Source: Candidatus Nomurabacteria bacterium
GTDB taxonomy: Bacteria; Patescibacteriota; Minisyncoccia; Phycocordibacterales; UBA10002
NCBI GenBank assembly: GCA_943354745.1
Contig: CALRDB010000002.1
Span: 3,679-67,678, forward strand
Length of the DNA stretch: 64,000 nucleotides
Direction of reading: 5' to 3'
In this document: piece after piece, positions 4,104-52,867 of the stretch
Numbering within the stretch: the stretch's first letter is position 1
Layout of the letters: each line of letters begins with the position of its first letter
Notes under the pieces: model-generated
What the model was told of the DNA's origin: nothing
The model's database searches: none
The model's input: only the letters and a program-made list of their open reading frames with translations
Program-made: the position numbers and the translations under genes

Positions 4104-4104
4104 C

Positions 4105-12190: not shown

Positions 12191-12193
12191 GAT

Positions 12194-13252: not shown

Positions 13253-13313
13253 GAAGTATCAAATTATGAATTTTGCATATCAGGCTTTTTGATTCTGCCG
13301 CACGTATTGCGCT

Positions 13314-13492
13314 GTCGTACCACAGGAGTACTAATTGTCTGCTAATTCGCTTCGCTCAAAGCATCCAATGTCGTACCACAGGAGTACTAATTGTCTGCTA
13401 ATTCGCTTCGCTCAAAGCATCCAATGTCGTACCACAGGAGTACTAATTGTCTGCTAATTCGCTTCGCTCAAAGCATCCAATGTCGCCCACAG
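13314..13492. repeat. Tandem repeat, 56-bp unit x 3.2 copies (unit gtcgtaccacaggagtactaattgtctgctaattcgcttcgctcaaagcatccaat)
   Basis: Perfect copies starting 13314, 13370, 13426 plus partial 13482; last copy encodes the final 9 codons and stop of the carboxypeptidase gene. Confidence 0.9.
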
Positions 13493-20967: not shown

Positions 20968-21594
20968 TCAACGCTTTTGTGTGGACAAACGTTCTCGTAA
21001 TTCAGGAAAGTGACGATACATCTTCTGATTAAAGTCGTCCATGTCAGTGAATAGCTCCGCGATAAAGCCTGTCTGCCTCGCAACCTTGATATTTTCATGC
21101 TCATCATCCCAAAAGAGTGTTTCTGGTGGATGTATACCTTTCGTCGTTTCTACGTAGTTCCAAAAGCTGGCATCTTCTTTTCGAGAGCCGACATGCGCCG
21201 ATGAAAACACGGCGTCAAAATACATACCGAGACCAAACTCATTGAGGATATAGTCGGTACGATATTTTTCATTATCCGTTGCCAGAAAGGTAGCAACACC
21301 ACTCGCCCGGAGTGTCTGTATGGTCGAAAGCATTTCCTCATTACGCAAACCTTCTTTACTAAACCAAAAATAAAGAAGCTCTTCGAGAGTGCCCTTCCAC
21401 CCCCAACTACGATAGTAGCGAGCGAGTTCAATCTTTAAATCTCGTTTGCCAATAGTACAATCTCGGAATACCTCATTGAAAAATGGCGCGGTAGTTTCCT
21501 TGGTAATACCGTAGTCGGCACACAATCGATCGGTGAACCGCTTATCGCGATTAATCACCACACCGTCTCCGTCAATAATAAGATTTTTAATCAT
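20968..21594 (-). CDS. HAD-superfamily hydrolase
   Basis: N-terminal IIDGDGVV (DxD motif I); overlaps MFS stop by 4 nt. Confidence 0.55.
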   Translation of the reverse strand: MIKNLIIDGDGVVINRDKRFTDRLCADYGITKETTAPFFNEVFRDCTIGKRDLKIELARYYRSWGWKGTLEELLYFWFSKEGLRNEEMLSTIQTLRASGVATFLATDNEKYRTDYILNEFGLGMYFDAVFSSAHVGSRKEDASFWNYVETTKGIHPPETLFWDDEHENIKVARQTGFIAELFTDMDDFNQKMYRHFPELRERLSTQKR

Positions 21595-22865: not shown

Positions 22866-22879
22866 GATGGGCTTATGAA

Positions 22880-22954
22880 TGGTGCTCCTAGCTGGAATCG
22901 AACCAGCATCATCTCCTTCGGAGGGAGATATCCTATCCATTGAACGACAGGAGC
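22880..22954 (-). tRNA. tRNA-Arg (anticodon CCG), CCA encoded
   Basis: rc gives GCTCCTG-TC-GTTCAATGGATAGGAT-A-TCTCC/CTCCGAA/GGAGA-TGAT-GCTGGTTCGATTCCAGC-TAGGAGC-A-CCA. Confidence 0.8.
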
Positions 22955-23097
22955 GTCAGGCACCTGCCCGACACGCTTCGCTGTCGATGCGGGCGGGAGT
23001 CGGGCAGGTATCCATTGAACGACAAGTGCGCACGACTATCTTATCTCCTCAGTCGGGAAATGGGAACCTCTTTTAGTTCCGTTGTCCGACTTGCCTT

Positions 23098-26115: not shown

Positions 26116-27171
26116 TTACATCTTAATAACTTTTTCCCAAGGAAGACCTTTTTTCCCAAAATGACCATAGGCGGCAGTCTGCAAATACCACGGTTTCCTG
26201 AGGTCAAGACGTTCGATAATCGCAAGTGGCCGAAAGTCAAAATGTTTCTTCACCAATGGCGCAAGACTCTTCCCTTTCTCGTCAATCGCGTGAACCATAA
26301 GCGGATCAATGTGGCCGATAGCATACGCGACAGAAACGAGACAATCTTTCGCGTATCCGTTTGCAACCAAATTTTTCGCCACAAACCGACACATGTAAGC
26401 AGCAGAGCGGTCGACTTTGGTGAGATCTTTTCCTGAGAATGCTCCTCCTCCATGACAGATAAGTCCGCCGTAGGTATCCACCATGATTTTGCGGCCAGTG
26501 AGTCCAGCATCTGCTTCGAATCCTCCCTGTACAAAACTCCCAGTTGGATTGACAAGGACCTCGATTCCTTGAAGCGACCCTATAATCGGAGCAATGATTT
26601 TCTTCGTAACGACATCGGTCACCTCGTCGTGCCCGACACTCTTGTCGTGCTGAGTAGAGACAAGCGCTGTGGCAATCTTGTTATCAAGAATGGTGATTTG
26701 GGTCTTACCATCGGGCTTGAGCCATTTTATTTCCTTTTTCTCTCGCGCCTCCTGAAGTCTTCGAGCCATCTTGTGTACTAACACAACACCCTTCGGTAAA
26801 AATTCGGGCGTTTCCGTCGTGGCAAAGCCGTACATAATACCTTGGTCGCCCGCACCTCCTGTGTTAACTCCTTGTGCGATATCAGGTGACTGCTCCACGA
26901 TAAAAACCTGGATATCTAACGGTTTGGTATAGCCAATACTTCTATACACCTGTGCAGCGATTTTCTTGTAATCCACCTTTGCTTTAGTAGTAACTTCTCC
27001 GCCGAGTACGAGATGTCCGTGGCTTCCAAACGTTTCTACGGCAACTCGACTCATAGGATCCTGCCTCATGCATTCGTCTAAAATCGCGTCTGAAATTTGG
27101 TCACAGACCTTATCTGGATGGCCATTGGTAACACTCTCTACGGTGTACGTCTTACGATCATGTATATGCAT
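26116..27171 (-). CDS. metK: S-adenosylmethionine synthetase
   Basis: GHPDKVCDQISDAILD, GGAGDQGIMYGFA motifs. Confidence 0.9.
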   Translation of the reverse strand: MHIHDRKTYTVESVTNGHPDKVCDQISDAILDECMRQDPMSRVAVETFGSHGHLVLGGEVTTKAKVDYKKIAAQVYRSIGYTKPLDIQVFIVEQSPDIAQGVNTGGAGDQGIMYGFATTETPEFLPKGVVLVHKMARRLQEAREKKEIKWLKPDGKTQITILDNKIATALVSTQHDKSVGHDEVTDVVTKKIIAPIIGSLQGIEVLVNPTGSFVQGGFEADAGLTGRKIMVDTYGGLICHGGGAFSGKDLTKVDRSAAYMCRFVAKNLVANGYAKDCLVSVAYAIGHIDPLMVHAIDEKGKSLAPLVKKHFDFRPLAIIERLDLRKPWYLQTAAYGHFGKKGLPWEKVIKM

Positions 27172-27256: not shown

Positions 27257-27400
27257 TATTAAAAATTAAAATCCTTCCGTCCAGGAAGAATTTGACATTG
27301 TATCTTCCCTCGCGGGCTAGATGGAGCACCGCGTTCTCACAAAACCGGTTGCCGGAGGATCCTTGAGCTAGTACTCTCCCCTCTCTCTTGATATATATTC
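27257..27400 (-). promoter_or_regulatory. SAM-I (S-box) riboswitch with intrinsic terminator in metK leader
   Basis: Minus-strand RNA AUCAAGAGAGAGGGGAGAGUACUAGCUCAAGGAUCCUCCGGCAACC…GGUGCUCCAUCUAGCCCGCGAGGGAAGAUA matches SAM-I conserved blocks (AUCAAGAGAGG, GGCAACC, GGUGC..A); hairpin CUUCCUGGACGGAAG followed by U-rich tract. Confidence 0.6.
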
Positions 27401-40115: not shown

Positions 40116-41315
40116 TTAATAGCCCTGCAACTTTTTCGACTTCTTATGCTGGCGGATTTTTTCGTGAGCTTTCGCTTCGATTTGGCGGATACGTTCGCGA
40201 GTCACGCCGAATTTTTGTCCCACTTCTTCGAGTGTGTGCGTGACACCGTCGAGGAGGCCATGCCGAAGCTCTAGAATCTTTCGCTCTTTTTCTGAAAGGT
40301 CGCCGAGAATTTCCTTCACTTGGTCTCCGAGGATACGGCGGGACGATTCCTGGTCGGGAGAAAGTATCTTGTCATCATGTAAAAAGTCTCCGAGTGTTGA
40401 CTTGCCGTCGTCGCCCTCATCGCCGACTGGCGATTCCAGCGAAACGGTATCTTGGTCAATTTTTTCAATCTGGTACACCTTGTCCGTCTCAATACCCATC
40501 TCGATACCGATTTCTTCCGGAAGCGGGTCGCGGCCGAGATCTTGTGAAAGTCGTCTCACGACTTGCTTGTACTTAGCGATAGTCTCCACCATATGGACCG
40601 GCACGCGAATAGTGCGGGATTGATCGGCGAGTGCGCGAGTAATCGCTTGGCGGATCCACCACGTAGCATACGTTGAAAATTTATACCCCTTGGTCCAGTC
40701 GAATTTGTCGACAGCCTTAAAGAGACCTAAGTTCCCTTCTTGAATGAGATCGAGGAGTGTGAGGTCAGGCGAGCGTCCCACGTATTTTTTAGCAATCGAA
40801 ACAACCAAACGGAGGTTCGCTCGAGCAAGAAGATTTTTGGCTTCCATGTCTCCCGCCTGAATGCGCTTCGCGAGCTCTTTTTCGTCTTTGGCGTTGATGA
40901 GGGGGTATTGTCCGATTTCCTTGAGGTACATCTGAATCGAATCATAGGATCCTTCACTACTCTTGCCGAGGTAGACATTTTTCTTTCCATGCGGTTCCGC
41001 GACTTCTTTCTCAAGCATTCCACCACCTTCGAGTACGTCAATACCCGCTGTTTGGAATTTGGAGTAAAGTTCATCGAGGAACATGATGTCCTCTTCGATG
41101 GTAGGAAATTCTTTCAAAATGTCGTTATAGGTGATGAACCCGCGATTCTTACCCTTTGCGACAAGACGATCAGCACGTATATCACGCTCCTTACCTTTAG
41201 CCATTTTCTCGACAGGTTTTGATGCAACCTTACTCTTTATAGGCTTCTTTTTTGGAGCAACCTTTGCTTTAATGGCTTTTTTCTTCTTTTTGAGGTCTTT
41301 TTTCGCTTTTGACAT
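40116..41315 (-). CDS. rpoD: RNA polymerase sigma factor RpoD (sigma-70)
   Basis: Region 2 [17 protein letters not shown]…[10 protein letters not shown]; region 4; ORF-track start is TTG at 41387, ATG at 41315. Confidence 0.88.
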
Positions 41316-41387
41316 AGTGGCGATAGTATATCTTAAATAGCGGTAACTGCAACCGTCCGAACATACGAAGAAAAGAGTGGGTTCCAA

Positions 41388-42010
41388 AGAACCTGGGGCT
41401 GCTTAAAAAATGTAAGAAAAAAGCGACTTGAGATGCTACCCAAGTCGCTCGACACAATGCGGTACACTACTCGACCCGACCCAACTCCGCAAAACCATGA
41501 GTGACTAAACCGCAATCGCCAAACGCTCGCGAACGAGCGTTTGGCCCCAAGCAAAGGACGTGATACCGCACCGGACACCACTCAACACGACCGCGGATTG
41601 ACATAATTGCCATGCCTCCGTAAACGAAAGCACGGCCCCGTACCGTAGAACTCAGTGCAGAACAACTGGACACGAAGCCCGAGCCCACCATGCTGTGCCA
41701 TACCTAAATGTGTCAGCCGATTCGAAAATCGACTGACACCCGAACGCTACAAATGAACAGAGGACAAAACAAGACCCTGCAAAACAATACGGCAATCGCA
41801 CTCCAACCGAAGTCGGAGTGCTCCAAGCTGTAACGCTCCGGACCCTGCAACACTTGACGATACCGGACATGACCGCAGAATACACCACCGAAATAAACGG
41901 GAGGTGAAATCCACCTCCCGTTCCCAGACAGGACACAAACGTACAATGCATAACCCTACTGAACCTTACCGAACTGGACCGAAATATTCCGCACCTGCTT
42001 CCAAGTTTGG
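41388..42010. other. CA-skewed hairpin-dense noncoding block A
   Basis: + strand about 63% A+C; perfect hairpins e.g. ccaaacgctcgcgaacgagcgtttgg, cgggaggtgaaatccacctcccg, gtgtcagccgattcgaaaatcgactgacac; ORF track shows only short overlapping two-strand ORFs. Confidence 0.7.
41415..41450 (-). terminator. Rho-independent terminator (minus-strand sense) immediately upstream of rpoD
   Basis: + strand gaaaaaagcgacttgagatgctacccaagtcgc; minus strand gives 8-bp stem followed by U6. Confidence 0.6.
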
Positions 42011-42017
42011 ACCCGGA

Positions 42018-42659
42018 CTATTCACCTGCATATCCTTTCGGTTGCTCCGTCCACTGCCAGCTCACTGCCTCGAACTTCCCGTACGCGCCCCGTTGCTCGG
42101 CCGAGAAGAGACCTATCCCGATATCGCGCCCCGCACTGCCGACGAGCCTCTGGATAATCTTCTCATTAAGCGGCGCCGAGAATGAGATGAGCGCCTCACA
42201 TGACCAGTCGTCAAACTGGGGGCAACGAACGATGCCCATCTCGCGTGAGTTCGGCCTCGCGTGACGATTGCGGGAGTACACACTCCAACCGGAAGTGCTC
42301 GAGAGTATGAGATATCCTCCGATGATGCAGTATTGACTCACCTGATCCACGAAGTGGCCACTATGCCTATCCTGATACGGCCATGCCGCCATGCGAACCG
42401 CGTGCTTCAGCCACCTGCCTGGCACCGCGATACACCCACTGCGAGTGTCGCGGACAAGCAAGTCAGCTAAAGGTTGCTTTGAGATCTTGATGATCTGTTC
42501 ACGCCTGGTATGGTCCGTTATCGGATGCATAAGAAGCGGTGTGACTCCCCGTAGGTGAACGAGGAGGTATTTCTTTGATATCGGTGCCGGTAGCTTCATA
42601 ACGGAGCTCCGAACCGCGTTGGGAACTGGCATTTCTGCCATAACTGTTTTTGTGTTCAT
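42018..42659 (-). CDS. Hypothetical protein (orphan ORF embedded in noncoding island)
   Basis: 213-aa ORF with normal base composition flanked by CA-skewed DNA; no recognised domain. Confidence 0.45.
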   Translation of the reverse strand: MNTKTVMAEMPVPNAVRSSVMKLPAPISKKYLLVHLRGVTPLLMHPITDHTRREQIIKISKQPLADLLVRDTRSGCIAVPGRWLKHAVRMAAWPYQDRHSGHFVDQVSQYCIIGGYLILSSTSGWSVYSRNRHARPNSREMGIVRCPQFDDWSCEALISFSAPLNEKIIQRLVGSAGRDIGIGLFSAEQRGAYGKFEAVSWQWTEQPKGYAGE

Positions 42660-43639
42660 AAATCAATGATCTGTCCAAAACCAACATGCAGAATAACACG
42701 TTTATATAAATACGTCAACTTTCGTATAAAAAGGCGCCATCCGAAGCCGGACAGCGCCATATGATCCAAACACCGGCGAGCATTGCAACGCGATACTATT
42801 CAGAACGCTAACTAACACAAGAGCAATTTCCCGCTCCGATGTAGCATCGGAGCGGGACCCGCAACAGAAGTAACCGCACTCCGGAATACCTTGCGATACA
42901 GAGCCTAGCCCCGCCGGACCGAAATTGCCACCCGTCTTCGAAAAAACGGGTGGCCACGGACCGTACCCGGTTCTACCCGACAGGACATTAGAGTACACAA
43001 CAAGAACCAACACCACCAGAATTTCCTGCCAGCCGTAACCGGCTGACAGGACCCGGACGCTACTCGAGAGTTCAGGACAGGACCTGACTGGACAGAAACG
43101 CGCGTAACCGTAATTCCAGGCCTCTGCGTGCAGAGACCTGGTCCGTGCAAAACAGCGGAATGCACTGGCGGACAGAACAGTATCGAACCGAACCGTACTA
43201 TAGGCTAACAGGAACTTAATTCCCCAAACTCCCTCATCGAGAGTTTGGGTCCGAGCTTCACGGGACATTGCGACACGATGCGACTGCTAGACGCATCTTT
43301 CCAGAAATTCCTATCCTCCCGAGAGAGGTAGGATCCGAACAAAAAAATCTTCTGACGCACAAGACCAGACCTGACTGTAACTGAGACGGCACAAACGCAA
43401 CTGTCGAGTCCTTGTAGTAAGGACTCGACCCTGACCATGCACAACTCCACAACGCCAGACCGAACGGGACAGGGACTAAGCATACTTTTGCGCAATTTCC
43501 TGTCCGTTCTAACGAATGAACAGGACCCACACTCAACCTCACCCAACAGAACATTTGAGAGCGACGACGCAGAATACCTTACCATAGTGAACAGTTACGC
43601 CGAAGCGTACCTGCTGTTTTTCAATGCTCAAATGCTAAC

Positions 43640-43702
43640 TGCAAAGTAACACGAAAATCTATTTTAGGCAAGAAAAAGGCGTCCCGAACGAATCGAGACG
43701 CC
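43640..43702 (-). promoter_or_regulatory. Terminator (43672-43702) plus conserved 20-nt motif TGCAAAGTAACACGAAAAT (43640-43658), module copy 1
   Basis: Minus strand: GGCGUCUCGAUUCGUUCGGGACGCC-UUUUUCUU followed by UAGAUUUUCGUGUUACUUUGCA. Confidence 0.55.
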
Positions 43703-45276
43703 AGCCATAAAGAAGACAAGCCCTGGGCACGGTGCGGAACAATACCTCACCGAGCATAACCTTAATTTGAGTGCTCCGACACATCGAAGCACTCACCCTA
43801 CCGCGGACTTGCATACGAGAAGAAACCCAACCTTGCTAGTGAGTACCGAACCCAAAAGAACCACTGTGTGCGACACCGTATCTACCGATGCCTGGCAAGG
43901 CAGGCATCGGTCCTACACCCTACCGCTCTCTACCCCATGGTACCTAACACCACTGAACACTACATCATCGAAACGAAGTCTGAACGCCGATTGAGAATCG
44001 GCGTTCACCCGTACCGAACCATACCTTGCAACAATCCACAGAACTGAAACGCGCAGCAGATGACAGGACCGAAATTTGTCGTCCCGATTTGTTCATCGGG
44101 ACGACATCCGTACTCTGCGACACCGGTCATTACCTGACAGGTGCACACGCTACGTTACAGGACCATAATGTGCTATCTCGATGAAGCATCGAGATAGCAT
44201 CCGCACCACTATTGGCCGGACAATAAGATACTCTGCAACACCCGAGAATTGAGATCCATAATTTCACCGTCCCAATAGTACATCGGGACGGTGACCCAAC
44301 AAAACCATACCTGACAGGACACCGCGATACTGCAGAACACAGGAGAGGACACTGACTTACCGTAACTTCCCAGACCCTCGCAAGCGAAGGTCTGGGACCC
44401 AACCATACCGGATAACGCCGGACAACGCGCCACTCTACTACACCTGAACGCAATCGCCCATCCCGATCTTAATCGGAATGGGCTCCGAGAAAAACCGTAC
44501 CGTAGAATACACTGCCTTAACACACGAAACGGTGACATACGGAACCGCATTATTCTGCTTCAACCGAAGTCAAAGCAGAACCCACACCGGACATGAATTC
44601 ACCGTACAACACCCTACCCCACTTAAGATGACAAGAGAGCGATAGGTCGCCCTGACCGAAACCAGAGCAACCCCCTACAGAACAGCGCATCGCCACAGGA
44701 TTGCACGCGCTACATAACCAAGCCGGAGCGCAAAGGCTGTCCCGATCGAAATCGGGACGGTCCCGAAGCAAACGGCACGTTTGCGCACACTTGATTACAG
44801 AACTTGAATGCAACATGCTGAACTGAGGCACTGCGTATATACCGCTCCGACCGAAGTCGAAGCGGCTTCGCACGCTACGCTACCGTGCGGGACACAAACA
44901 GACGTTACACCACTCTACGTAACCGCGATACATCACGCGCTCACTGAGCGCGTGATGCCCCCCGCCGCACCAAGCGACACTAAACCCCGACGGACAGAGG
45001 CTATCCTGAACGTGCCACAACTGTCATGCACCGTGAGATGCATGACATCAGCGACAAGCATTACCAGGCCTGACAGAGACACGCCTTGCAGTACGTTTCC
45101 TAGCCTGACCTAATCCTGCGAAACCAGAATTTACCACCCCGACCAGAGTCGGGGTGGTACCCGAGGAAAGCATTAGCTGACCTGACATAAAGACGGAAAG
45201 CCCCACCTATGCTTACTGGGCCGAACGCTACCAAATTTAACTCATTTTCAGTTGACAATGAGCTACTAACGAATTT

Positions 45277-45356
45277 CAAAGTAACACGAAAATAGAGATA
45301 ACGCAAGATTCGCAATCCTGCAAGAAAAAAGGCGTTTTGAGAAAACTCAAGACGCC
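45277..45356 (-). promoter_or_regulatory. Terminator (45325-45356) plus conserved motif CAAAGTAACACGAAAAT (45277-45293), module copy 2; terminates helicase gene
   Basis: Minus strand: GGCGUCUUGAGUUUUCUCAAAACGCC-UUUUUUCUU then …CUAUUUUCGUGUUACUUUG. Confidence 0.55.
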
Positions 45357-45378
45357 GTCGATTGACCTGCAATGGAGA

Positions 45379-47214
45379 TTACTTTCCAAACATCCGCTTC
45401 ACCTCCGCTACCGCCTCGGCGAAGCTTTTGCCACCGTCGTAGTATTGGCGAAGCCCTTCAGAGAGCCGTGGCCAAACGATCTTCCGAAACTGCTGTGAGA
45501 TAAATATGATAGCCCCTTTATCCTTCGGACTCCGAATGTTCCGCCCCATGTGCTGAAGTGACTTGATCCCCACGCGCCATTGTTCAAGTTTGAAATGAGT
45601 GCTTTCACCCCACTTCCTCACCTCGAACACACTTGCTGGATCATCCGGCCTGCTGTATCCAGGACGAAGATCGAAGATGACCGGCGCGAGGCCGTCAGGA
45701 AGATCGAGCCCTTGCCCGAAGTTCGTTTCCGTACCGACCAGAGTCATACCGAGACCATCTTTGAACTCCTGCGCGGCAGTCCGAGCCATTCGTTCACCGC
45801 CATAGCTCACAGTGTCGAGACCCAGATTCGTCGAGTGAACCAAGAATTGATCACGCTCATCGTTTGAGACGACAATGACCAGACTCCGAATCCCCATGTC
45901 CGCCCACTCCTTGCACGCCTTGACCATGCTCTTGAGCGCTTTCTTCAGATCATCGGGCTTCCGGTTCTTCGTTGAGAGGTCCGGCGTATCGGACGGCATG
46001 AAGATCTTGGCGTTCTGTGGAGGAAAGCTTGACGGAAGCGAGAGAAACTCTCCTTCTTCCATTCCGGTTTCCCAACCGAACGTGTCTTTATCCCCGACAG
46101 TAGCCGAGAAGGCCGCGTACTCTTCGCCCAGTATTGAGCGGATGATAGGCGCCACTGTGTGTGCCTTAATCACCAGCTTATGCTGAACGCGCTTACCCTC
46201 CGCGAGTTCCTGCTGATGAAAGGCGTAGCTGTAGTTCATCCTTTTCCGTTTCAACGTGTCGAGCGAATACTCGAACGAGTGAATGTACCGGCGGATATCC
46301 CGCACCAGCACCTCCACTTGGCGAAGTGTTAGGGCCTCTTCCACTTCATCGACGGCCCCTTCACCTATTGCTTTGATGAGCTTATCTCCCAGCCTCGCCG
46401 GATTAATCGCTTCAAGCAGACCCATGAGCTCGAGGATTTCTCCATCCTCAATGATGGTCGGCTTCCACGCAGCCTTCTTCTTAACGATGTCAATCATGCG
46501 TTTCTGAAACTTCGCGAGAAGATCCGTCTCATCGACCTCAAGTCTCTCGAGTAGTTTGACGGCTCGACCGAGGTGATAGTCACTAATCTCGTAAGAGAGC
46601 GTGCGACGAACCACGTCGCCCATTAGGTGCGCTTCGTCAATGACGAGCACCTTCGGCTTCTCCCACCGCTTCGTGAAAAGCTGAGAGAAGAGATAATACG
46701 CAAAGGTGCAGAGCACGATTGGCGCGTTCATAGCCTTGTGGGTGAAGTGATAGTACTGACAGCGCTCCGCGTCCTTCTCGTGCGTCTCCCCCGTTTTGAG
46801 GTTGACGCGATGCGGACAGTTCCGCAGGAAAGAGCAGGCGATTTCATCCGCGCGATATTGAACATCTTCCGGCTTGGTCTCAAGCGAGAATCGTTCATCC
46901 GCGTTGTCCTCGTAGTAGTAGCACGGGAAATCATGTTTACCCACCACGATGGCGAGGTCGAGATATTCCCGATAAATCTGCTGGAGGATGGTCTTGTTCG
47001 GCGTGATGAGAAACAGCGGTTTCTTGCCCGCGTTTGCCGCGGCCTTCAGAATGGCATACTCGACGGCAGTCTTGCCGTGGCCGGTCGGCATCTCAATGAT
47101 GGACTTCGGATGCTGTGCCCAGAATTCGAGAACCTGCCGCTGTTGCGGGCGCATAACGCTGTGCTTCTCTGACGGAAATGCCGAACAGAGTTCGGCAAAG
47201 GTTTGTCTGCTCAT
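45379..47214 (-). CDS. DinG/XPD (Rad3)-family ATP-dependent DNA helicase with Fe-S domain
   Basis: Walker A EMPTGHGKT, DEAH box VIDEAHLM, four Cys between motifs I and II; ORF-track start TTG at 47256, ATG at 47214. Confidence 0.75.
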   Translation of the reverse strand: MSRQTFAELCSAFPSEKHSVMRPQQRQVLEFWAQHPKSIIEMPTGHGKTAVEYAILKAAANAGKKPLFLITPNKTILQQIYREYLDLAIVVGKHDFPCYYYEDNADERFSLETKPEDVQYRADEIACSFLRNCPHRVNLKTGETHEKDAERCQYYHFTHKAMNAPIVLCTFAYYLFSQLFTKRWEKPKVLVIDEAHLMGDVVRRTLSYEISDYHLGRAVKLLERLEVDETDLLAKFQKRMIDIVKKKAAWKPTIIEDGEILELMGLLEAINPARLGDKLIKAIGEGAVDEVEEALTLRQVEVLVRDIRRYIHSFEYSLDTLKRKRMNYSYAFHQQELAEGKRVQHKLVIKAHTVAPIIRSILGEEYAAFSATVGDKDTFGWETGMEEGEFLSLPSSFPPQNAKIFMPSDTPDLSTKNRKPDDLKKALKSMVKACKEWADMGIRSLVIVVSNDERDQFLVHSTNLGLDTVSYGGERMARTAAQEFKDGLGMTLVGTETNFGQGLDLPDGLAPVIFDLRPGYSRPDDPASVFEVRKWGESTHFKLEQWRVGIKSLQHMGRNIRSPKDKGAIIFISQQFRKIVWPRLSEGLRQYYDGGKSFAEAVAEVKRMFGK

Positions 47215-47356
47215 AATCAGTCTTCGGATGTTTGATGTTTGGTGTTCCCTTGTCAAAATCCACTCCCGAAGGAGTGAACTGGAGTCTTAGCCCCGTGCTA
47301 ATCCTCGACGCACACTAACAGGATTTCTCGTCTACGTCAAGGTTTGGTTACGGGTC

Positions 47357-47385
47357 TGTCATTCCCTTGGAAAAGGGAATTCAGT
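47357..47385 (+). repeat. Hairpin repeat family copy f
   Basis: ctgtcattcccttggaaaagggaattcagtg. Confidence 0.65.
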
Positions 47386-48380
47386 GCTGTAGTCCAAATA
47401 TAAAAAGCGCCTCGACGAATCGAGACGCTTATTCCTGACCCAACAAAAGAGCACCTCACATTGGATGAGAATACCCGAACTGACAATACCCGACCGAGAA
47501 GGACCAAAATTGAAGCGTTCCCGAAAACGAGAACGCTTCCCCGCACAGGACACTACCTGACTGCACTGAAACCAACCACTCCGAAATTGAAGCGTCCCGA
47601 CGAATCGAGACGCCTCATCCGGACTCGAGCATTCACAAACGAACAGGACGGAACCTGACTGAACGACGCCGCATGCCACCTCAATCGGCATTCCGCTTTA
47701 GAAACGGAATACCCCCGTACCTTACCTTTGAAATGAGAGGCAAAATTCGAGCATCCCGACTAATTCTCGGGATGCTCGCCTGACAAAGGTGTACCATGAT
47801 TGAGCGAGCCGGCGAAAACCGACTCGCTCCCGAACAGAACTCTACGTCACGCCTCCGAAACAAACGACTGCCTACGGGGCGATACAAAACAGGTGCATAC
47901 GAAGACTTGCCGTAATTGCCGAACACCTTCGAAAAGGCGCTCGGCTCCACACCGAACCTGTTCTCGCAGGACACTACAACAGAAATGTTGGCTTGAGCTA
48001 ACTCATGCAAGCCACACGGCACATCTGATGACCTCAACTGAGCGAGCCGGCCGAAACCGACTCACCCCCGAACGTAAACAGACAGCTCTGCACGGGACAA
48101 TAGCGCACCCAACCTAAACCGACACCACCTGACCATAATTACCAAGCTCCTACGAACAAGAGCTTGGTTCCCGAGCGTACCAAGAAGCGCGAAACAGAAC
48201 AGTTGACTGCGAAACATGACTTTAGAGAACCACAATTGTCGAATCCGTGCTCGCACGGATTCGACCCGAGGAATGACTCAAACAAACATACTGGACTGAA
48301 CGGAACTTTACACTTGTGTGCCCCAAAATAGGTGACCGCAATCACTGCGACAACGAATTGTCGAAGTACGAAATACCGAG

Positions 48381-48432
48381 TGCAAAGTAACACAGAAATA
48401 TAAAAACGGCAAGTCTCGTGAAAGACCTGCCG
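48381..48432 (-). promoter_or_regulatory. Terminator (48403-48432) plus conserved motif TGCAAAGTAACACAGAAAT (48381-48399), module copy 3
   Basis: Minus strand: GGCAGGUCUUUCACGAGACUUGCC-GUUUUUAUAUUUCUGUGUUACUUUGCA. Confidence 0.55.
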
Positions 48433-49135
48433 TATGACTACATTACCTGACCTTACCCTACCCAACCGTACCTTGCCTCAAAGAACAAGACCTAACCGTG
48501 CCACATTCTCCCGCCCCTCTTGCGAATGGCGGGACCCGTGCCATAATCGACCTTACTGAACCTTACCTAAGAGGAACCGGCGGAAGAATCCTCTGCCGAA
48601 ACTTGACGAGCACTTTCGGAAAAGTGCTCGTCCCATGCTGCAGTTCAGATTACTACGCGTCACCTGACCGCGCGAGACGCTACGTTACCGCACTGTAGCG
48701 AGCCGATTGTTATCGGCCCGCTCCCGAACAAAACCCGACACCACGTTAGCCCGCAGAACTGAACCAAGCTTGAGCGTATTAGTGGACAGCTCCGCTAGGA
48801 GCTGTCCAACCGATACCTTTTCATAACGCACTGAACAGTGGATTACAAAACGGGACACTGCACCACCGGACCGTAATCAGTATCCCGACTTTCAGCGGGA
48901 TACTCCGGTACCGAACAGGACAGGGCCATACTTAGGAACACTCAAAATGAGCACACCTGACTTGACCGTACCGCAATTGCCAAACTTCTGCGAACAGAGG
49001 TTTGGCTCCACACAGCGCCTGTGTTCACAGGACTACAGGGTACAAAACCTGACGATTGAGTACGACAGGATACGAGACCGAAATGGTCGGCGGAAATGCT
49101 TTTCCGCCGACACCGACAACAGACTGAACTCTGTC

Positions 49136-49167
49136 AAAAAAAAGCGGAGGTACCGAAGCACCTCCAC
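49136..49167 (-). terminator. Strong rho-independent terminator (minus sense) after hypothetical gene
   Basis: Minus strand GCGGAGGUGCUUCGGUACCUCCGC followed by U8. Confidence 0.7.
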
Positions 49168-49188
49168 ATGACTGTCACTTCTTCGTCG

Positions 49189-50010
49189 TTACTCGGTAGC
49201 TACCGGAGCCGGACTGAGTCCCGCCACGCGTTTTTCGAGAACCTTACTCGACATTCGGCCGTTGTCCTCCGTCTTCGGAGCATGCTTCTCAGCCTGGCCG
49301 ACGTACTTGATTTCAATGTCGTCATTGATCGGTTCGATCTTGATTACTTCGAACTTCGAAACACGAAACTGTCCGTAGGAACCGGGCTTGTTTGGGGCCG
49401 AACCGCGCCAGTCGCCGAGACCGGATTTTTCGCCGGCCTTCTGCCAGAGCTGGAGCACGGTGTCGTCAGAGAAGTCAGGGTCCTTGAAGGTGAACTCAAT
49501 CTCGCACGCCCACTTCGGAATTAAAGGGCGGACCGTACGATTGGACCCCTTGGTCTGTTGGTTGACGGTACGACCCGCGTGAACTTCCCACGGAGTGTTC
49601 GCTTTCGCCTCCTCCTCCCCCATCGGCAACGCCTCGGTCGCAACTTCCCCGTTCGCATCGAGCCCCTTGAAGGCATAGAAGCGTTTGGTGAAGGTCACGA
49701 TGCTGGGGATTTCGGTTCCGCCACCTGACTTGGTGATGGCCGACGTGCGCTTCCCTTTCTTGACGGAGATGTGCTTCCCGCCGTTACAGAGGGTGGCCAT
49801 GAGGTTGTCCATTGGCCAGCCCATTTCACCGTTCGGTCCGCGATAGAGCTTGGCCTGAGCAACCACAACATCTTGGATGTCGCCGCGCTTGGGCGTTGCC
49901 GCTTTTTTGCCGCCGATCTCTTCAAGTGTACCGAGAAGCATGGGGTTTTGGATTGCTGCGGTTACTGAATCCAGTAACATCCGCACTGTCTTCTGCTGTC
50001 TTTCTGCCAT
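49189..50010 (-). CDS. Hypothetical protein (273 aa)
   Basis: Long ORF with balanced composition directly downstream of dnaG; no recognised family. Confidence 0.5.
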   Translation of the reverse strand: MAERQQKTVRMLLDSVTAAIQNPMLLGTLEEIGGKKAATPKRGDIQDVVVAQAKLYRGPNGEMGWPMDNLMATLCNGGKHISVKKGKRTSAITKSGGGTEIPSIVTFTKRFYAFKGLDANGEVATEALPMGEEEAKANTPWEVHAGRTVNQQTKGSNRTVRPLIPKWACEIEFTFKDPDFSDDTVLQLWQKAGEKSGLGDWRGSAPNKPGSYGQFRVSKFEVIKIEPINDDIEIKYVGQAEKHAPKTEDNGRMSSKVLEKRVAGLSPAPVATE

Positions 50011-50116
50011 AATTACCCTTACTTAATGCACCGAATCGCCGAAGCGAGCCGGTTTTGTTATGTAGTTGTCGAAGAGCTATAGATTCGGGCCGAAAAGCCT
50101 TGTCTGTAAGCCCTTG

Positions 50117-50227: not shown

Positions 50228-51982
50228 TTAAGAAGTCGTAGTAAACCGGTGGGATTTGAGGGCTCCCAATTTTTGGGTGAGTTCTTTACACTTTGCCAGC
50301 AGGGCTTGCGTCTCTTCTTTATTCCCGTCGTGCTCTGATTTGGCCAGTGTGTCCATTGTCTCAGAAAGAAGCATCGTAATATGCTCTTGTTCCAAATGAC
50401 GAAGAAGCTCCTCTTCCTCACTTACACCGGGCGAGGTATCCCCGTAGAGCGCTTCGGCTTCAAGCAAGAGAACATCAGCAAGTGCTTTATAGTGCTCTAC
50501 TTTTTTATCGAATACCTCCTTTTCAAAGATGCGGAGAAGTGCAGTCTGTAACCGCTCGAACAACAACGTATTCTTCTGCGACTCCGAAAGAAGATAAATA
50601 CTAAACACCCTCCGTTCAAGTGTATTCGAACGAACCGGTGCGGTAGCTTTACGTAATTCAGGTATTTCTTTTTCTCCAGCGACAGCCGGTACTTTTTTAA
50701 ACGCCTCCCAGAGCGCATCTTCCCGAAGACCGCTTTTCTCGGCGATTACTTTTATAAAATGGGATTGCTCAACAGGAGAAGTGAGAAGGCGGAGAAGCGG
50801 AAGTAGCGTCTTCTCAATCGCGAGCGCACGTTCCCTTCCCTCCTTGGAAGCATTGATAAGGTTAAGAAGAAGAAAATCAATAACGTGCTTTGATTCTGTT
50901 ACCGCCCTGTCCCATTCCTTTGGCTCCTTCAAAATAAGTTCAGCGGGATCTTTGCCTCCCCCGATCGCAATAACCTTCACATTCATACCAAGGGCGAGCG
51001 CCAGTTTTATCGCACGCTCGCTTGCTCGCACACCCGCACTATCCGCATCAAACGAAAGCAAGAGATTTTCGGACAGTCTTTTCAGACGCACAAGTTGTTG
51101 TTCGGTGAGTGCTGTCCCCGAAGATGCGACAGCATTCTCATGACCAGCTTGATGCACCATAAGAAGGTCCACTTGTCCTTCAACCAGTATCGCCGCGTCC
51201 TTTTGTCGTATCACGAGTTTCGCGCGGTCAAATCCATACAGGACTTCGGACTTATTGAAGAGCACGGTCTCGGGGCTGTTGATATATTTGCCTGTCTTTC
51301 CATCATCAAGTCTGGGGAGAATACGTCCTGAAAATGCGATAACTCGTCCCGCACTATCCCGAATCGGAAACATAATCCTCCCCCGGAAAGTATCATAGTA
51401 TTTCTTAGGACCTGACCCTGTGTGCCCTACAGAATCGGTTTGGTTGGCAATTTTAATCAAGCCGACCTTTCCCATTTCTTCCGGTGTAAATTTTTCCCGA
51501 GTGAGATAGTCGAATAGTTGCCTCCACTCCGCGGGGGCAAATCCTACTCGCCAGTCTTGTAGCGTTTTTTGGGTGAGACCTCTTCCGTCTATGTACACCT
51601 TCGCTTCAGCTGTAGCCCGCAATGTTTCTTCATAAAATCTCGTCGCTTTTTCGAGACAGAGATACAACCGTGCGTATTCGCTCTGTACCTTTGGATCAAG
51701 CTTAGTCAGGGTGACTCCCGCACGTTGCGCGAGCACCCGTAAAGCACCAATAAAGTCGAGTCCTTCAAACTCCTGCACGAACGTGAAAATATCCCCCTTT
51801 GCCTGACACCCGAAACAGTAATAGGAGTTGCGAGCAGGCGAGACAAAGAACGACGGCGACTTCTCATTGTGGAATGGGCATTTAGCCTTATAGGAAGTTC
51901 CTGCACGCTCAAGCTTTAGGTACGATCCAACCACATCGGCGATACCTAATCTTTCTTTAATTTGTTCAACCGGAGTGGACAT
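50228..51982 (-). CDS. dnaG: DNA primase
   Basis: Zinc-ribbon CPFHNEKSPSF…CFGC; TOPRIM domain; 584 aa. Confidence 0.9.
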   Translation of the reverse strand: MSTPVEQIKERLGIADVVGSYLKLERAGTSYKAKCPFHNEKSPSFFVSPARNSYYCFGCQAKGDIFTFVQEFEGLDFIGALRVLAQRAGVTLTKLDPKVQSEYARLYLCLEKATRFYEETLRATAEAKVYIDGRGLTQKTLQDWRVGFAPAEWRQLFDYLTREKFTPEEMGKVGLIKIANQTDSVGHTGSGPKKYYDTFRGRIMFPIRDSAGRVIAFSGRILPRLDDGKTGKYINSPETVLFNKSEVLYGFDRAKLVIRQKDAAILVEGQVDLLMVHQAGHENAVASSGTALTEQQLVRLKRLSENLLLSFDADSAGVRASERAIKLALALGMNVKVIAIGGGKDPAELILKEPKEWDRAVTESKHVIDFLLLNLINASKEGRERALAIEKTLLPLLRLLTSPVEQSHFIKVIAEKSGLREDALWEAFKKVPAVAGEKEIPELRKATAPVRSNTLERRVFSIYLLSESQKNTLLFERLQTALLRIFEKEVFDKKVEHYKALADVLLLEAEALYGDTSPGVSEEEELLRHLEQEHITMLLSETMDTLAKSEHDGNKEETQALLAKCKELTQKLGALKSHRFTTTS

Positions 51983-52072: not shown

Positions 52073-52867
52073 CTAAGGGGCCCCAGAAATGGGGTCCTTT
52101 GTGCTTTTTAGGGCCTCTTTTGAGCTTTCTTCGCCGTTCCAGCAGATAAAATCCCGCAGTTCAAAGATGTCGAAAATAAACAGACCTTCCTTCACCAAGG
52201 CGTTCAGCTCGCGGGAAACTCTGCCGGCTGTAGCGAATAATACAACCTTTTTACCGTTTACAAGTAGGCTTTTTATCGGGTCGGCAAAGTCGCTATCCCC
52301 GCTCCACAAAACAAACGTGTCGACATTATCCCGCAGGTCATCTATCCGCATATCCGTGCCTATCTCAACGTCAAAATTGCATTTCCTGTCCTCTATGGAG
52401 TAAATACCTTGTGCATTCATCTCCTTGAACTTATTGTTGAGAAACTCAACTGTTTCGATACTGTACTTCCTGAGCAGAGATTTCCTCATGAATTTCTTCA
52501 ACAAATCCGGCGACTGCAAAGAAATACTTGAGACGTCGATTGGCAACTTCATTATCTTTACCGACTTAGTTCGTATTTCGTATTTGCATCGCTCTAACTT
52601 TTTTATTTCTTCTCGGGAGTGGGGGTCGCCGACTAGCTCTCCTTGATACCATTTTATGGAACCCACACTCTCAAAAGATTTGAGAAACTGCTTCAAACGA
52701 TTTGGACTGACATGCCATTTTAATTTTTCCGACCAAGGACGGACATTGGCAAAATCAATATAGGTGTTCGTTTTGCCAACGAAAAGGCCATCCACCTTCT
52801 GCACCGTAGGCATACGGTCCTCTCTCTTTGCCAGCTCTTCAATTCTTTGGGTCTTGGGCGTGAACAT
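52073..52867 (-). CDS. NYN/LabA-like domain protein (predicted RNase)
   Basis: C-terminal LWSGDSDF signature of NYN domain. Confidence 0.6.
   Translation of the reverse strand: MFTPKTQRIEELAKREDRMPTVQKVDGLFVGKTNTYIDFANVRPWSEKLKWHVSPNRLKQFLKSFESVGSIKWYQGELVGDPHSREEIKKLERCKYEIRTKSVKIMKLPIDVSSISLQSPDLLKKFMRKSLLRKYSIETVEFLNNKFKEMNAQGIYSIEDRKCNFDVEIGTDMRIDDLRDNVDTFVLWSGDSDFADPIKSLLVNGKKVVLFATAGRVSRELNALVKEGLFIFDIFELRDFICWNGEESSKEALKSTKDPISGAP

What the first reader, a model, noticed from the sequence alone, without database searches (positions are those of the whole stretch)
47290..49185. Second CA-skewed block partitioned into ~1-kb units by minus-strand terminators
Terminators at 49136-49167, 48403-48432 and 47402-47429, plus weaker AAAUUGAAGCG…CGCUUC hairpins at 47508-47540 and 47582-47612, subdivide 1.9 kb of ORF-free hairpin-rich DNA. 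The hairpin GCGUCCCGA(A)CGAAUCGAGACGCC recurs at 47590 and 43678, and in variant form at 47407.
Basis: seen in the sequence. Interest (0 to 1): 0.6.

Follow-up and report, generated by a model that had tools for sequence, protein, structure and literature searches.

The report
VIPR guide-RNA array with helicase
The ORF-free, hairpin-rich block is an array of about 17 guide RNAs made of five-base repeats, part of a recently described CRISPR-like VIPR system that here carries two RAMP proteins and a DinG/XPD-type helicase.

Summary
Window 47290-49188 is ORF-free and C+A-rich on the + strand. It holds 16 minus-strand hairpins of at least 10 bp, against 1.2 expected, and three of them are terminator-like.

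Between the hairpins the minus strand is a string of pentanucleotide repeats, nGY-NN. G is at position 2 in 68% of units, a pyrimidine at position 3 in 91%, and positions 4 and 5 are unconstrained. The repeats stay in fixed register with each hairpin: GG[G/A]-hairpin-AAUU-NN-GGU-NN...

This is the architecture of vrRNAs of VIPR systems, described in two 2026 bioRxiv preprints. The flanking ORF273 is a Vipr-family RAMP. Its family profile hits only the SUSP1 Vipr structure in the PDB (E=2e-16). It keeps the GGY-binding Arg and Asp-Trp-Arg, and its model has a Cas7-like fold. ORF213 is a diverged paralogue, and the 611-aa protein between them is an Fe-S XPD/DinG-type helicase.

The 8.8-kb island between dnaG and rpoD carries about 46 such tracts. 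Block C holds about 17, in two transcription units. Four related metagenomic or MAG locus types show the same layout.

Verdict: a new member of a known, very recently described kind. No targets were found.

The parts
49189..50010 (-). vipr (ORF273): Vipr-family RAMP protein, predicted to polymerise on the repeat tracts
   Evidence: The 81-sequence family profile hits only PDB 36pp_D, SUSP1 Vipr, at E=2.3e-16 over the full length. hhalign to the phage Alf5 Vipr gives 91%. R161 and D200-W201-R202 align to SUSP1 R138 and D177-W178-R179. AF2 pLDDT is 86.5. Foldseek top hits are Csm3/Cas7, E about 1e-6.
49142..49169 (-). terminator-like hairpin plus U8 after vipr; also the first hairpin of array C1
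49086..49111 (-). leader hairpin of array C1 (11 bp)
48979..49085 (-). vrRNA unit 1: tract 49007-49085 (15 pentamers) plus hairpin 48979-49006
   Evidence: G2 10/15, Y3 13/15
48879..48978 (-). vrRNA unit 2: tract 48905-48978 (14 pentamers, starts A-ATTGC-GGTAC) plus hairpin 48879-48904
   Evidence: Y3 14/14
48781..48878 (-). vrRNA unit 3: tract 48811-48878 (13 pentamers) plus hairpin 48781-48810
48695..48780 (-). vrRNA unit 4: tract 48725-48780 (11 pentamers) plus hairpin 48695-48724
   Evidence: Y3 11/11
48605..48694 (-). vrRNA unit 5: tract 48633-48694 (12 pentamers) plus hairpin 48605-48632
   Evidence: G2 10/12, Y3 12/12
48506..48604 (-). extra hairpin 48577-48599, then vrRNA unit 6: tract 48533-48576 (8 pentamers) plus large-loop hairpin about 48506-48532
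   Evidence: boundaries approximate
48404..48505 (-). vrRNA unit 7: tract 48436-48505 (13 pentamers, including GGCAA GGTAC GGTTG GGTAG GGTAA GGTCA GGTAA). Its tail is the terminator hairpin 48404-48435, which ends array C1
   Evidence: G1 10/13, G2 12/13, Y3 13/13
48384..48412 (-). promoter-like element of array C2: TTGCCG, 17 nt, TG-T-TACTTT (extended -10)
   Evidence: Read from the sequence. It is one of four aligned copies in family D5 (42677-42719, 43630-43672, 45265-45307, 48371-48413). Not experimentally tested.
48343..48368 (-). leader hairpin of array C2
48238..48342 (-). vrRNA unit 8: tract 48266-48342 (15 pentamers) plus hairpin 48238-48265
48141..48237 (-). vrRNA unit 9: tract 48169-48237 (13 pentamers) plus hairpin 48141-48168
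48040..48140 (-). vrRNA unit 10: tract 48068-48140 (14 pentamers) plus hairpin 48040-48067
47918..48039 (-). vrRNA unit 11: tract 47946-48039 (18 pentamers) plus hairpin 47918-47945
47802..47917 (-). vrRNA unit 12: tract 47830-47917 (17 pentamers) plus hairpin 47802-47829
47748..47801 (-). short unit 13: tract 47779-47801 (4 pentamers) plus hairpin 47748-47778
   Evidence: possibly degenerate
47687..47747 (-). short unit 14: tract 47714-47747 (6 pentamers) plus hairpin 47687-47713
   Evidence: weak repeat content
47585..47686 (-). vrRNA unit 15: tract 47621-47686 (13 pentamers) plus hairpin 47585-47620
47512..47584 (-). vrRNA unit 16: tract 47540-47584 (8 pentamers) plus hairpin 47512-47539
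47402..47511 (-). vrRNA unit 17: tract 47434-47511 (15 pentamers). Its tail is the terminator hairpin 47402-47433, which ends array C2
   Evidence: Y3 15/15
47312..47340 (-). promoter-like element of the helicase gene: TTGACG, 17 nt, TG-T-TAGTGT
   Evidence: read from the sequence; inference
45379..47214 (-). accessory helicase (vap-like): XPD/DinG-family SF2 helicase with Walker A, DEAH box and four invariant Cys (Fe-S cluster)
   Evidence: Pfam ResIII, DEAD, DEAD_2 and Helicase_C_2. PADLOC typeIV_DinG E=1e-41. Motifs are invariant in five orthologues. PDB hits are XPD/Rad3.
43678..45378 (-). array B1: helicase terminator 45331-45356, promoter-like 45278-45306, about 17 tracts, terminator 43678-43702
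42731..43677 (-). array B2: promoter-like 43643-43671, about 10 tracts, terminator 42731-42760. The ORFs listed here (42702-43268, 43205-43585) are judged spurious
42018..42659 (-). vipr paralogue (ORF213; the true start is probably 9-27 codons further in), preceded by the promoter-like site 42690-42718. Keeps the thumb Arg and the beta-1 His, but its G-loop is GIGLF instead of GLGDWR
   Evidence: hhalign to the ORF273 family gives 96%, E=3e-9. hhalign to the Alf5 Vipr gives 90%. Alignment; promoter.
41421..42017 (-). array A: about 6 tracts downstream of ORF213, ending at terminator 41421-41450

Best explanation
Window 47290-49188 is two back-to-back arrays (C1 and C2) of about 17 VIPR guide RNAs (vrRNAs), transcribed from the minus strand. 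Each unit is a tract of 4-18 pentanucleotide repeats, n-G-Y-N-N, flanked by stable hairpins of about 12 bp.

The arrays belong to an 8.8-kb VIPR island (41390-50100) with four kinds of component:
- a Vipr RAMP (ORF273);
- a diverged Vipr paralogue (ORF213);
- an Fe-S XPD/DinG-type helicase;
- three further arrays, giving about 46 tracts in all.

Proposed mechanism, by analogy with the SUSP1 VIPR system (bioRxiv 10.64898/2026.04.26.720920 and 10.64898/2026.04.26.720927):
1. The long transcripts are cut into units at or next to the hairpins.
2. ORF273 protomers bind one per repeat. They sequester the G-Y bases through the thumb Arg and the G-loop Asp-Trp-Arg, and they present the variable NN bases.
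3. The filament reads double-stranded DNA of a competing phage or mobile element through gapped NN pairing.
4. The helicase is then recruited to unwind or clear the bound DNA.

Shown here: the repeat code, the register with the hairpins, the strandedness, the protein homologies, and conservation of the locus layout in relatives. Inferred: transcription and processing, filament formation, DNA targeting and the pairing rule, and the roles of the helicase and of ORF213. ORF213 may be a cap or handle binder for the AAUU/hairpin junction, in the manner of Cas5 or Cas6.
For: Repeats:
- G autocorrelation is 1.3 at lags 5, 10, 15 and 20 in all three non-coding blocks. Coding DNA shows lag 3 instead.
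- GGY-GGY pairs at lag 5 give z=6.6 (block C) and z=7.9 (block B) against dinucleotide shuffles.
- Over 209 pentamers in block C, G at position 2 is 68% (phase-matched shuffle control 39 +/- 2%) and a pyrimidine at position 3 is 91% (control 65 +/- 2%). Positions 4 and 5 have 1.99 and 1.95 bits of entropy.
- 46 of the window's 53 minus-strand tracts lie in the 5.3 kb of island non-coding DNA.

Register and hairpins:
- The profile after hairpins reads A A T T N N G G T N N, then (G G T N N)n, and GG[G/A] before the next hairpin falls in the same phase.
- Hairpins number 16 against 1.2 expected, with G-U pairs only on the minus strand. Stems all differ while the flanks are conserved.

Proteins:
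- The ORF273 family profile hits only SUSP1 Vipr in the PDB, E=2.3e-16 over the full length. The GGY-contact residues R, D, W and R are conserved.
- The fold is Cas7/Csm3-like, and 1223 family representatives are found.
- ORF213 is a paralogue. The helicase motifs are intact.

Conservation:
- Loci L001, L006 and L007 have the same order (RAMP, gap, helicase, gap, second RAMP, gap), and L002 lacks only the helicase. Their gaps are GU-rich, 5-periodic and hairpin-rich, and their hairpins are followed by an ATTC-NN-GGT handle.
- The next-closest Vipr relatives also sit beside such helicases.

Positive controls: phage Alf5 and the IMG/VR contig L129 show canonical GGYNN tracts next to their vipr genes.
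Against: - No RNA data, so transcripts, processing sites and protein binding are unproven.
- The first G of GGY is not conserved here (40%, the same as the control). The repeat is therefore nGY, or 'YNNNG'-like, rather than canonical GGY.
- ORF273 has Asn where SUSP1 has His17.
- The tails are simple hairpins with variable sequence, not the invariant pseudoknotted tail of SUSP1.
- Many tracts contain degenerate units.
- No target was found with the xNN rule or with NNN variants, either locally or in the viral and metagenome collections.
- I could not see the preprint's figures or tables, so I cannot say which of its seven types, if any, this is.
Confidence: 0.85

Rival explanations
1. A degenerate type IV (DinG-associated) CRISPR-Cas locus. 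The hairpins would be decayed CRISPR repeats, the intervening DNA old spacers, and the two small proteins Csf2/Csf3-like RAMPs.
For: The helicase's best PADLOC match is typeIV_DinG, CAS-IV-A associated, E=1e-41. ORF273 has a Cas7-like fold. Hairpins recur at roughly 100-nt spacing.
Against: - No family of direct repeats: Tandem Repeats Finder reports nothing in the island, and the hairpin stems all differ.
- The 'spacers' share one strand-biased composition and a 5-nt repeat in fixed register with the hairpins, which acquired spacers would not have.
- Neither RAMP hits any Cas model in PADLOC, NCBIfam or Pfam.
- NCBIfam cas_csf4 scores 24.9 bits against a cut-off of 400.
- The helicase has four invariant Cys, as in XPD/DinG.
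- No cas1, cas2 or cas6 in the window.
Confidence: 0.05
2. Structured long non-coding RNAs, or a protein sponge or scaffold, unrelated to guiding. The GU-rich repeats would titrate an RNA-binding protein, as CsrB or TRAP-type triplet repeats do, and the hairpins would stabilise the RNA.
For: The layout is repeated short motifs separated by 2-3 variable bases plus stable UUCG-type hairpins. No targets were found.
Against: The arrays are always linked to Vipr-family RAMPs that keep the residues contacting GGY in the SUSP1 structure. Those proteins are experimentally RNA-guided DNA binders in SUSP1 and P. fulva (preprint 10.64898/2026.04.26.720920). Near-maximal entropy at NN fits information storage better than a sponge.
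Confidence: 0.06
3. A remnant of a protein-coding gene, or a region translated with an alternative genetic code.
For: None beyond a few ORFs of 100-190 aa that run through the blocks.
Against: All frames carry all three stop codons. Periodicity is 5 nt, not 3. The coding-sense strand would be 60% G+T. Relatives have equally ORF-free gaps. The ORFs have no Pfam hits.
Confidence: 0.01

Closest known systems
VIPR systems (Viral Interference Programmable Repeat), type II as in Escherichia phage SUSP1 and FelixO1-like phages; bioRxiv 10.64898/2026.04.26.720920 and 10.64898/2026.04.26.720927
   Same: A small RAMP (Vipr) sits beside intergenic arrays of RNAs built of pentanucleotide repeats, with conserved G-Y and hypervariable NN, each tract capped by a structured element. 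There is no CRISPR array and no adaptation genes. The thumb Arg and the G-loop Asp-Trp-Arg are conserved.
   Different: - Here the locus is chromosomal, in a host I take to be CPR/Patescibacteria-like. That is inferred only from the relatives' Candidatus Taylorbacteria labels.
- About 46 tracts in five arrays, against about 4 vrRNAs in SUSP1.
- The first G is relaxed (nGY).
- Tails are simple 12-bp hairpins of variable sequence followed by an AAUU handle, rather than an invariant pseudoknotted tail.
- There are two Vipr paralogues.
- The accessory gene is an XPD/DinG helicase rather than a small DNA-binding Vap.
VIPR types III-V, which the preprint says encode nucleases or helicases and are enriched in host defence islands
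   Same: A helicase accessory gene and a location on a cellular chromosome. The Vipr-plus-helicase link extends to the next-closest Vipr relatives.
   Different: The preprint's text does not describe the helicase family, a second Vipr, or hairpin-delimited arrays. Its figures and tables were not readable here, so identity with one of these types is unverified.
Type IV-A CRISPR-Cas (Csf effector plus CasDinG)
   Same: A RAMP-based RNA-guided complex partnered with a DinG-family helicase and no nuclease. Type IV-A is reported to interfere without DNA cleavage; this is from my own knowledge of the type IV literature and was not checked here.
   Different: No CRISPR repeats, no Cas6, Csf1 or Csf3 signatures, and a different guide architecture. 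The helicase does not reach the Csf4 family cut-off, and it has four invariant Cys, consistent with an Fe-S cluster.
Cas7 backbone subunits (Csm3 of type III-A; Cas7 of type VII)
   Same: The best structural matches of the ORF273 model, with an RRM core, thumb and G-loop.
   Different: Sequence identity is 10-13% and TM-scores are 0.4-0.5. Cas7 binds crRNA with a 6-nt period, whereas the RNA here has a 5-nt period.

Membership tests
VIPR system | A Vipr protein: a small RAMP homologous to the characterised Vipr (RRM core, thumb, G-loop) | tested here: met
   The ORF273 family profile (81 sequences) hits PDB 36pp_D, SUSP1 Vipr, at E=2.3e-16, residues 1-192 of 202, as the only PDB hit. hhalign to the Alf5 Vipr gives 91%. 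The AF2 model (pLDDT 86.5) best matches Csm3/Cas7.
VIPR system | Residues that hold the GGY motif in the SUSP1 structure (H17, R138, D177, W178, R179) | tested here: met
   ORF273 has R161 and D200-W201-R202 aligned to R138 and D177-W178-R179, with Asn at the H17 position. ORF213 keeps the Arg and the His but has GIGLF in the G-loop. The feature is therefore met for ORF273 only.
VIPR system | Intergenic RNAs made of tandem pentanucleotide repeats, GGY/NN or a related consensus, with at least 4 units (typically 9-16) | tested here: met
   5-nt periodicity. 17 tracts of 4-18 units in block C. The consensus is nGY-NN: G2 68%, Y3 91%, G1 not above control. This corresponds to the 'YNNNG' variant named in the preprint's methods.
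VIPR system | Hypervariable NN positions | tested here: met
   Entropy is 1.99 and 1.95 bits at positions 4 and 5 over 209 pentamers. This is a within-locus comparison only.
VIPR system | A structured tail capping each repeat tract | tested here: met
   Each tract abuts a hairpin of 9-15 bp in fixed register. Unlike SUSP1, the stems vary in sequence and no pseudoknot is evident.
VIPR system | No CRISPR array or adaptation genes in the locus; a minimal gene set with an accessory (vap) gene | tested here: met
   No CRISPR-like repeats. The genes are two RAMPs plus one helicase.
VIPR system | vrRNAs are expressed, processed and co-purify with Vipr | not testable with these tools
   Only promoter-like and terminator-like sites can be read from the sequence.
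VIPR system | NN bases specify a DNA target with a one-nucleotide skip | tested here: inconclusive
   No match above shuffled controls locally. Five 10-unit seeds gave 0 hits in viral contigs. An 8-unit seed and a metagenome seed gave only hits that extend at chance level.
Type IV CRISPR-Cas | A CRISPR array of near-identical direct repeats with unique spacers | tested here: not met
Type IV CRISPR-Cas | Csf1, Csf2 and Csf3 effector proteins and the CasDinG (Csf4) family | tested here: not met
   The RAMPs have no hits in PADLOC, NCBIfam or Pfam. The helicase hits one PADLOC typeIV_DinG model (E=1e-41) but scores only 24.9 bits against TIGR03117 cas_csf4, whose cut-off is 400.
Intrinsic (Rho-independent) terminators | A GC-rich stem-loop directly followed by a U run | tested here: met
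   Met for 49142-49169, 48404-48435 and 47402-47433. Not met for the other 14 or so hairpins of the block, which are followed by AAUU-NN-GGU.
Any Rfam family, including the hammerhead ribozymes reported between vrRNAs in some VIPR arrays | A covariance-model match | tested here: not met
   Nothing in the island at the gathering threshold. At E<=1 there are only two chance-level sRNA hits.

The most novel reading that the evidence does not exclude
This rare clade may be a separate VIPR type standing between minimal phage VIPRs and multi-subunit class 1 (type IV-like) CRISPR effectors. It combines two specialised RAMP paralogues, an Fe-S XPD/DinG helicase, and very large multi-promoter arrays of hairpin-delimited guides. 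Only four close clusters exist among 5.8 billion proteins, and only one of 185,579 species genomes carries it.

In this reading the second RAMP, which has lost the Asp-Trp-Arg G-loop, acts as a Cas5/Cas6-like subunit that recognises or cuts at the hairpin/AAUU junction. The relaxed nGY repeat, with Asn in place of His17, would imply a pairing rule different from the published xNN code.
Probability: 0.25. Interest if true: 0.8.

Novelty: new member of a known kind. Interest (0 to 1): 0.55.

Why it matters
VIPR systems were described only in 2026, and they are proposed to be the ancestors of the CRISPR RAMP effectors. This locus is a natural example with about 46 guides, two RAMP paralogues and a DinG/XPD helicase, on what the relatives suggest is a CPR-type bacterial chromosome.

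That makes it a useful test case for three questions:
- how VIPR arrays are processed, since here the units are delimited by hairpins and an AAUU handle;
- how helicase accessory genes turn DNA binding into interference;
- whether subunit specialisation began before CRISPR arrays existed.

It also shows that VIPR arrays can be recognised from raw sequence by three signs: strand-biased G+U content, 5-nt periodicity, and hairpins in register with the repeats.

Tried and rejected
- **Alternative genetic code or degraded gene.** Rejected: all stop codons occur in all frames, and periodicity is 5 nt, not 3.
- **tRNA-like or known RNA families.** ARAGORN and Rfam find nothing in the island.
- **CRISPR array.** No direct-repeat family.
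- **Pfam, NCBIfam and PADLOC on the two small proteins.** No hits.
- **First AF2 model.** Built from 4 sequences, it was too poor to use (pLDDT 51). It was replaced by a model from an 81-sequence alignment.
- **Target prediction.** The xNN rule and NN or NNN with 0-3 skipped bases gave nothing above shuffled controls in the window and fetched loci. The only perfect matches were self-copies of the same locus. Five exact 10-unit seeds gave 0 hits in viral contigs. One 8-unit seed gave 104 hits that extended at chance level, at most 5 of 12 positions. One 10-unit seed gave 7 metagenome hits, also at chance.
- **Assigning one of the preprint's seven types.** Its text names neither the helicase family nor double-Vipr systems, and its figures and tables are not held.
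- **Host identity.** No source names the window's proteins. The genome is not among the species representatives scanned.
Full report
**Setting**

The window is a bacterial chromosome segment. It carries rpoB, rpoC, dnaG, rpoD, three tRNAs and a SAM riboswitch. Between rpoD (40116-41387) and dnaG (50228-51982) lies an 8.8-kb stretch of higher G+C, about 52% against 46%. Everything in it is on the minus strand, in this order:
- ORF273 (49189-50010);
- non-coding block C (47290-49188, the finding);
- a helicase of 611 aa from the ATG at 47214 (45379-47214; the ORF listing extends the ORF to 625 aa from a TTG at 47256);
- non-coding block B (42700-45378);
- ORF213 (42018-42659);
- non-coding block A (41390-42017).

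**The observation**

The described features are all real.
- Block C is A 0.30, C 0.30, G 0.22, T 0.18 on the + strand. Blocks A and B have the same composition, and the flanking genes do not.
- All six frames carry all three stop codons, so no single recoding opens a frame.
- Terminator-like hairpins with U runs lie at 49144-49167, 48406-48433 and 47405-47430.
- The hairpins at 47512-47539 and 47585-47620, and the recurrence of GGCGTCTCGATTCG(T)TCGGGACGCC at 43678, 47402 and 47585, are confirmed.
- Block C has 16 minus-strand hairpins of at least 10 bp, against 1.2 +/- 1.1 in dinucleotide shuffles. Only 6 form on the + strand, because 21 pairs are G-U. The folded strand is therefore the minus strand.

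Listing the hairpins with their flanks showed a common module on the minus strand: GG[G/A], a stem of about 12 bp, a tetraloop (often UUCG), the return stem, then AAUU-NN-GGU. The stems all differ while the flanks are conserved. In 14 units with a 12-4-12 geometry, every one of the 12 pairs changes on both sides. That set was chosen for pairing, so only the variability is informative, not the percentage paired.

Between hairpins the sequence is periodic with period 5.
- G autocorrelation is 1.3 at lags 5, 10, 15 and 20 in blocks A, B and C. The neighbouring genes show lag 3 instead.
- GGY-GGY pairs at lag 5 are 17 observed against 4.1 +/- 1.9 expected in block C (z=6.6), and z=7.9 in block B.
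- Aligned on the hairpin ends, the profile reads A A T T N N G G T N N, then (G G T N N)n. The GG[G/A] before the next hairpin is in the same phase.
- Over 209 pentamers of block C, position 2 is G in 68% (control with the same best-phase choice: 39 +/- 2%). Position 3 is a pyrimidine in 91% (control 65 +/- 2%; G never occurs there).
- Position 1 is G in only 40%, the same as the control. Positions 4 and 5 have 1.99 and 1.95 bits of entropy.
- Across the whole 64-kb window, 46 of 53 minus-strand tracts with at least 6 good units fall in the 5.3 kb of island non-coding DNA. The whole + strand has 8.

**The proteins**

ORF273 and ORF213 have no Pfam, NCBIfam or PADLOC hits. ORF273 has only four close clusters among 5.8 billion proteins.

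Profiles of both families hit one PDB entry, 36pp_D 'SUSP1 Vipr protein'. That led to two 2026 bioRxiv preprints describing VIPR systems. The preprints report the following:
- Vipr is a minimal RAMP.
- vrRNAs consist of 9-16 (up to 30) tandem GGY/NN pentanucleotide repeats plus a structured 3' tail.
- One Vipr protomer binds each repeat, and the NN bases pair with DNA while skipping every third target base.
- There are seven types. Their accessory genes include nucleases or helicases in types III-V, and array architectures vary.
- Variant repeats occur, including 'YNNNG'.

An exhaustive profile search found 1223 family representatives at E<=1e-3. An 81-sequence alignment seeded on ORF273 hits SUSP1 Vipr at E=2.3e-16 over its full length, and nothing else in the PDB.

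ORF273 R161 and D200-W201-R202 align with SUSP1 R138 and D177-W178-R179, the residues that hold G1 and G2 and form the pyrimidine pocket. His17 of SUSP1 is Asn in this clade. With the deeper alignment the AF2 model reaches pLDDT 86.5. Its best PDB matches are Csm3/Cas7 of type III-A and Cas7 of type VII, at E about 1e-6.

ORF213 is a paralogue of ORF273 (hhalign 96%, E=3e-9). It keeps the thumb Arg and a His at the beta-1 position, but its G-loop is GIGLF.

The helicase has Walker A, DEAH and four invariant cysteines between them, as in XPD/DinG Fe-S helicases. Its best PADLOC model is a type IV-associated DinG (E=1e-41), but it is far below the NCBIfam Csf4 cut-off (24.9 against 400 bits).

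**Relatives**

The layout RAMP, 1-2 kb gap, helicase, 1-2 kb gap, second RAMP, 1-2 kb gap recurs in several places. These are a 189-kb JGI contig (L001), a Logan contig (L006) and a MAG (L007, GCA_030649255.1). It also recurs without the helicase in Candidatus Taylorbacteria contigs (L002-L005, L118).

In most of those gaps the gene strand is G+U-rich and 5-periodic (z 3.4-8.9; three of the eleven gaps are not significant). The gaps are full of tracts and of hairpins followed by an ATTC-NN-GGT handle. The gaps are therefore a conserved part of the system, not decayed genes.

The next-closest Vipr relatives (P0016, P0017) also sit next to ResIII/Helicase_C_2 helicases.

As positive controls, the FelixO1-like phage Alf5 (same Vipr as SUSP1 over the 44-aa query fragment) and an IMG/VR contig (L129) show canonical GGYNN tracts next to their vipr genes.

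**Anatomy of the finding**

Block C is two arrays.
- **Array C1** starts after the vipr terminator (49142-49169). It has a leader hairpin (49086-49111) and seven tract-plus-hairpin units, and it ends at the terminator 48404-48435.
- **Array C2** starts at a promoter-like element (TTGCCG, 17 nt, TG-T-TACTTT; 48384-48412). This is one of four aligned copies that follow terminators in the island (family D5). It has a leader hairpin (48343-48368) and ten units, and it ends at the terminator 47402-47433.

Tracts hold 4-18 pentamers. The best-formed tract is 48436-48505, with 12 of 13 units G at position 2 and 13 of 13 Y at position 3. Units 13 and 14 are short and weak.

Each tract is flanked by a hairpin on both sides, and the last tract of each array uses the terminator as its hairpin. 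The sequence alone therefore cannot say whether the hairpin is a 5' or a 3' element of the mature RNA. By analogy with SUSP1 I treat it as the 3' tail and AAUU as the 5' end.

**Mechanism**

What is shown:
- the repeat code, its register with the hairpins, and its strand;
- the Vipr homology, with conserved RNA-contact residues;
- the paralogue and the intact helicase;
- conservation of the whole layout in relatives.

What is inferred:
- transcription from the promoter-like sites;
- processing at the hairpin/AAUU junction, with no ribozyme detected;
- polymerisation of ORF273 on the tracts, and gapped NN reading of foreign double-stranded DNA;
- recruitment of the helicase to unwind or clear the bound DNA.

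My suggestion that ORF213 caps or processes the hairpin/AAUU junction is speculative. It rests only on the lost Asp-Trp-Arg and on the AUU that occupies the GGY slot of the first pentamer.

**Targets**

I found none.
- The xNN rule, and NN or NNN with 0-3 skipped bases, gave no match above shuffled controls in the window and fetched loci. The only perfect matches were self-copies.
- Exact 10-unit seeds from five tracts found nothing in viral contigs.
- An 8-unit seed gave 104 hits, all extending at chance level.
- A 10-unit seed gave 7 metagenome hits, also at chance.

Exact-match scanning is insensitive, and the pairing rule for nGY repeats may differ. This is therefore no evidence against targeting.

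**Comparison and novelty**

All sequence-testable defining features of VIPR are met. Expression and targeting are untestable or inconclusive.

Membership of type IV CRISPR-Cas fails on the array and on the Csf proteins.

Relative to the published text, this clade stands out in five respects:
- a second, diverged Vipr;
- an Fe-S XPD/DinG helicase;
- very large multi-promoter arrays;
- variable-sequence hairpin tails with an AUU handle;
- a relaxed first G.

The preprint states that types III-V have helicases or nucleases and that array architectures vary, and I could not read its figures or tables. I therefore file this as a new member of a known kind. I hold open, at about 25%, that it is a distinct type bridging VIPR and multi-RAMP CRISPR effectors.

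Noticed in passing
window 13313-13492: A tandem repeat of a 56-nt unit, 3.2 copies at 98% identity, just upstream of or overlapping the start of the minus-strand ORF 13454-14674. Its nature is unknown.
   Followed up: partly
window 2372-2447 and 4033-4104: tRNA-Val(CAC) and tRNA-Pro(CGG) are each followed within 1-2 nt by the start of a listed + strand ORF (2449-3450 and 4105-4704). tRNA-Arg(CCG) at 22880-22954 overlaps the 5' end of the minus-strand ORF 21591-22940. The ORF starts are probably over-extended.
   Followed up: no
window 27297-27397 (-): A SAM riboswitch (S-box), just above the Rfam gathering score (45.0 against 44.4 bits), upstream of the minus-strand ORF 26116-27171.
   Followed up: no
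window 11001-13000 and 22001-23000: Other stretches with strongly positive AT skew on the + strand (0.26-0.30). They lie inside long minus-strand ORFs (11099-12190, 12194-13252, 21591-22940). They are coding and are not further arrays: only two isolated pentamer tracts fall there.
   Followed up: partly
window 52073-52867 (-): A NYN-domain protein, a predicted RNase fold (Pfam E=3e-14), lies one gene beyond dnaG from the island. It could be unrelated, or a candidate processing nuclease.
   Followed up: no
window 43678-43702, 47402-47433, 47585-47620: Nearly the same hairpin, GGCGUCUCGAUUCG(U)UCGGGACGCC, is used twice as a terminator and once as an internal tail. All other hairpins differ from one another. 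This suggests duplication of array ends.
   Followed up: partly
L002-L005 and L118 (Candidatus Taylorbacteria contigs): These relatives have both RAMP paralogues and the arrays but no helicase. They lie next to a large serine recombinase and a DUF3800 gene. They may be a helicase-less variant or a mobile form.
   Followed up: partly
L129 7472-7644 (IMGVR_UViG_3300038427_000172): A viral contig carries a distant Vipr homologue (ORF 7665-8237). Directly upstream are three canonical GGYNN tracts separated by GGGATTCC(G/C).
   Followed up: partly
L001 about 11598-11623, 12389-12420, 12614-12642, 15115-15140, 15561-15588: In the JGI relative, near-identical terminator hairpins (GGCA(C/A)GTTC-tcac-GAAC(G/T)TGCC plus a U run) recur. 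Each is followed by a similar T-rich promoter-like stretch, mirroring the multi-unit transcription layout of the window.
   Followed up: no
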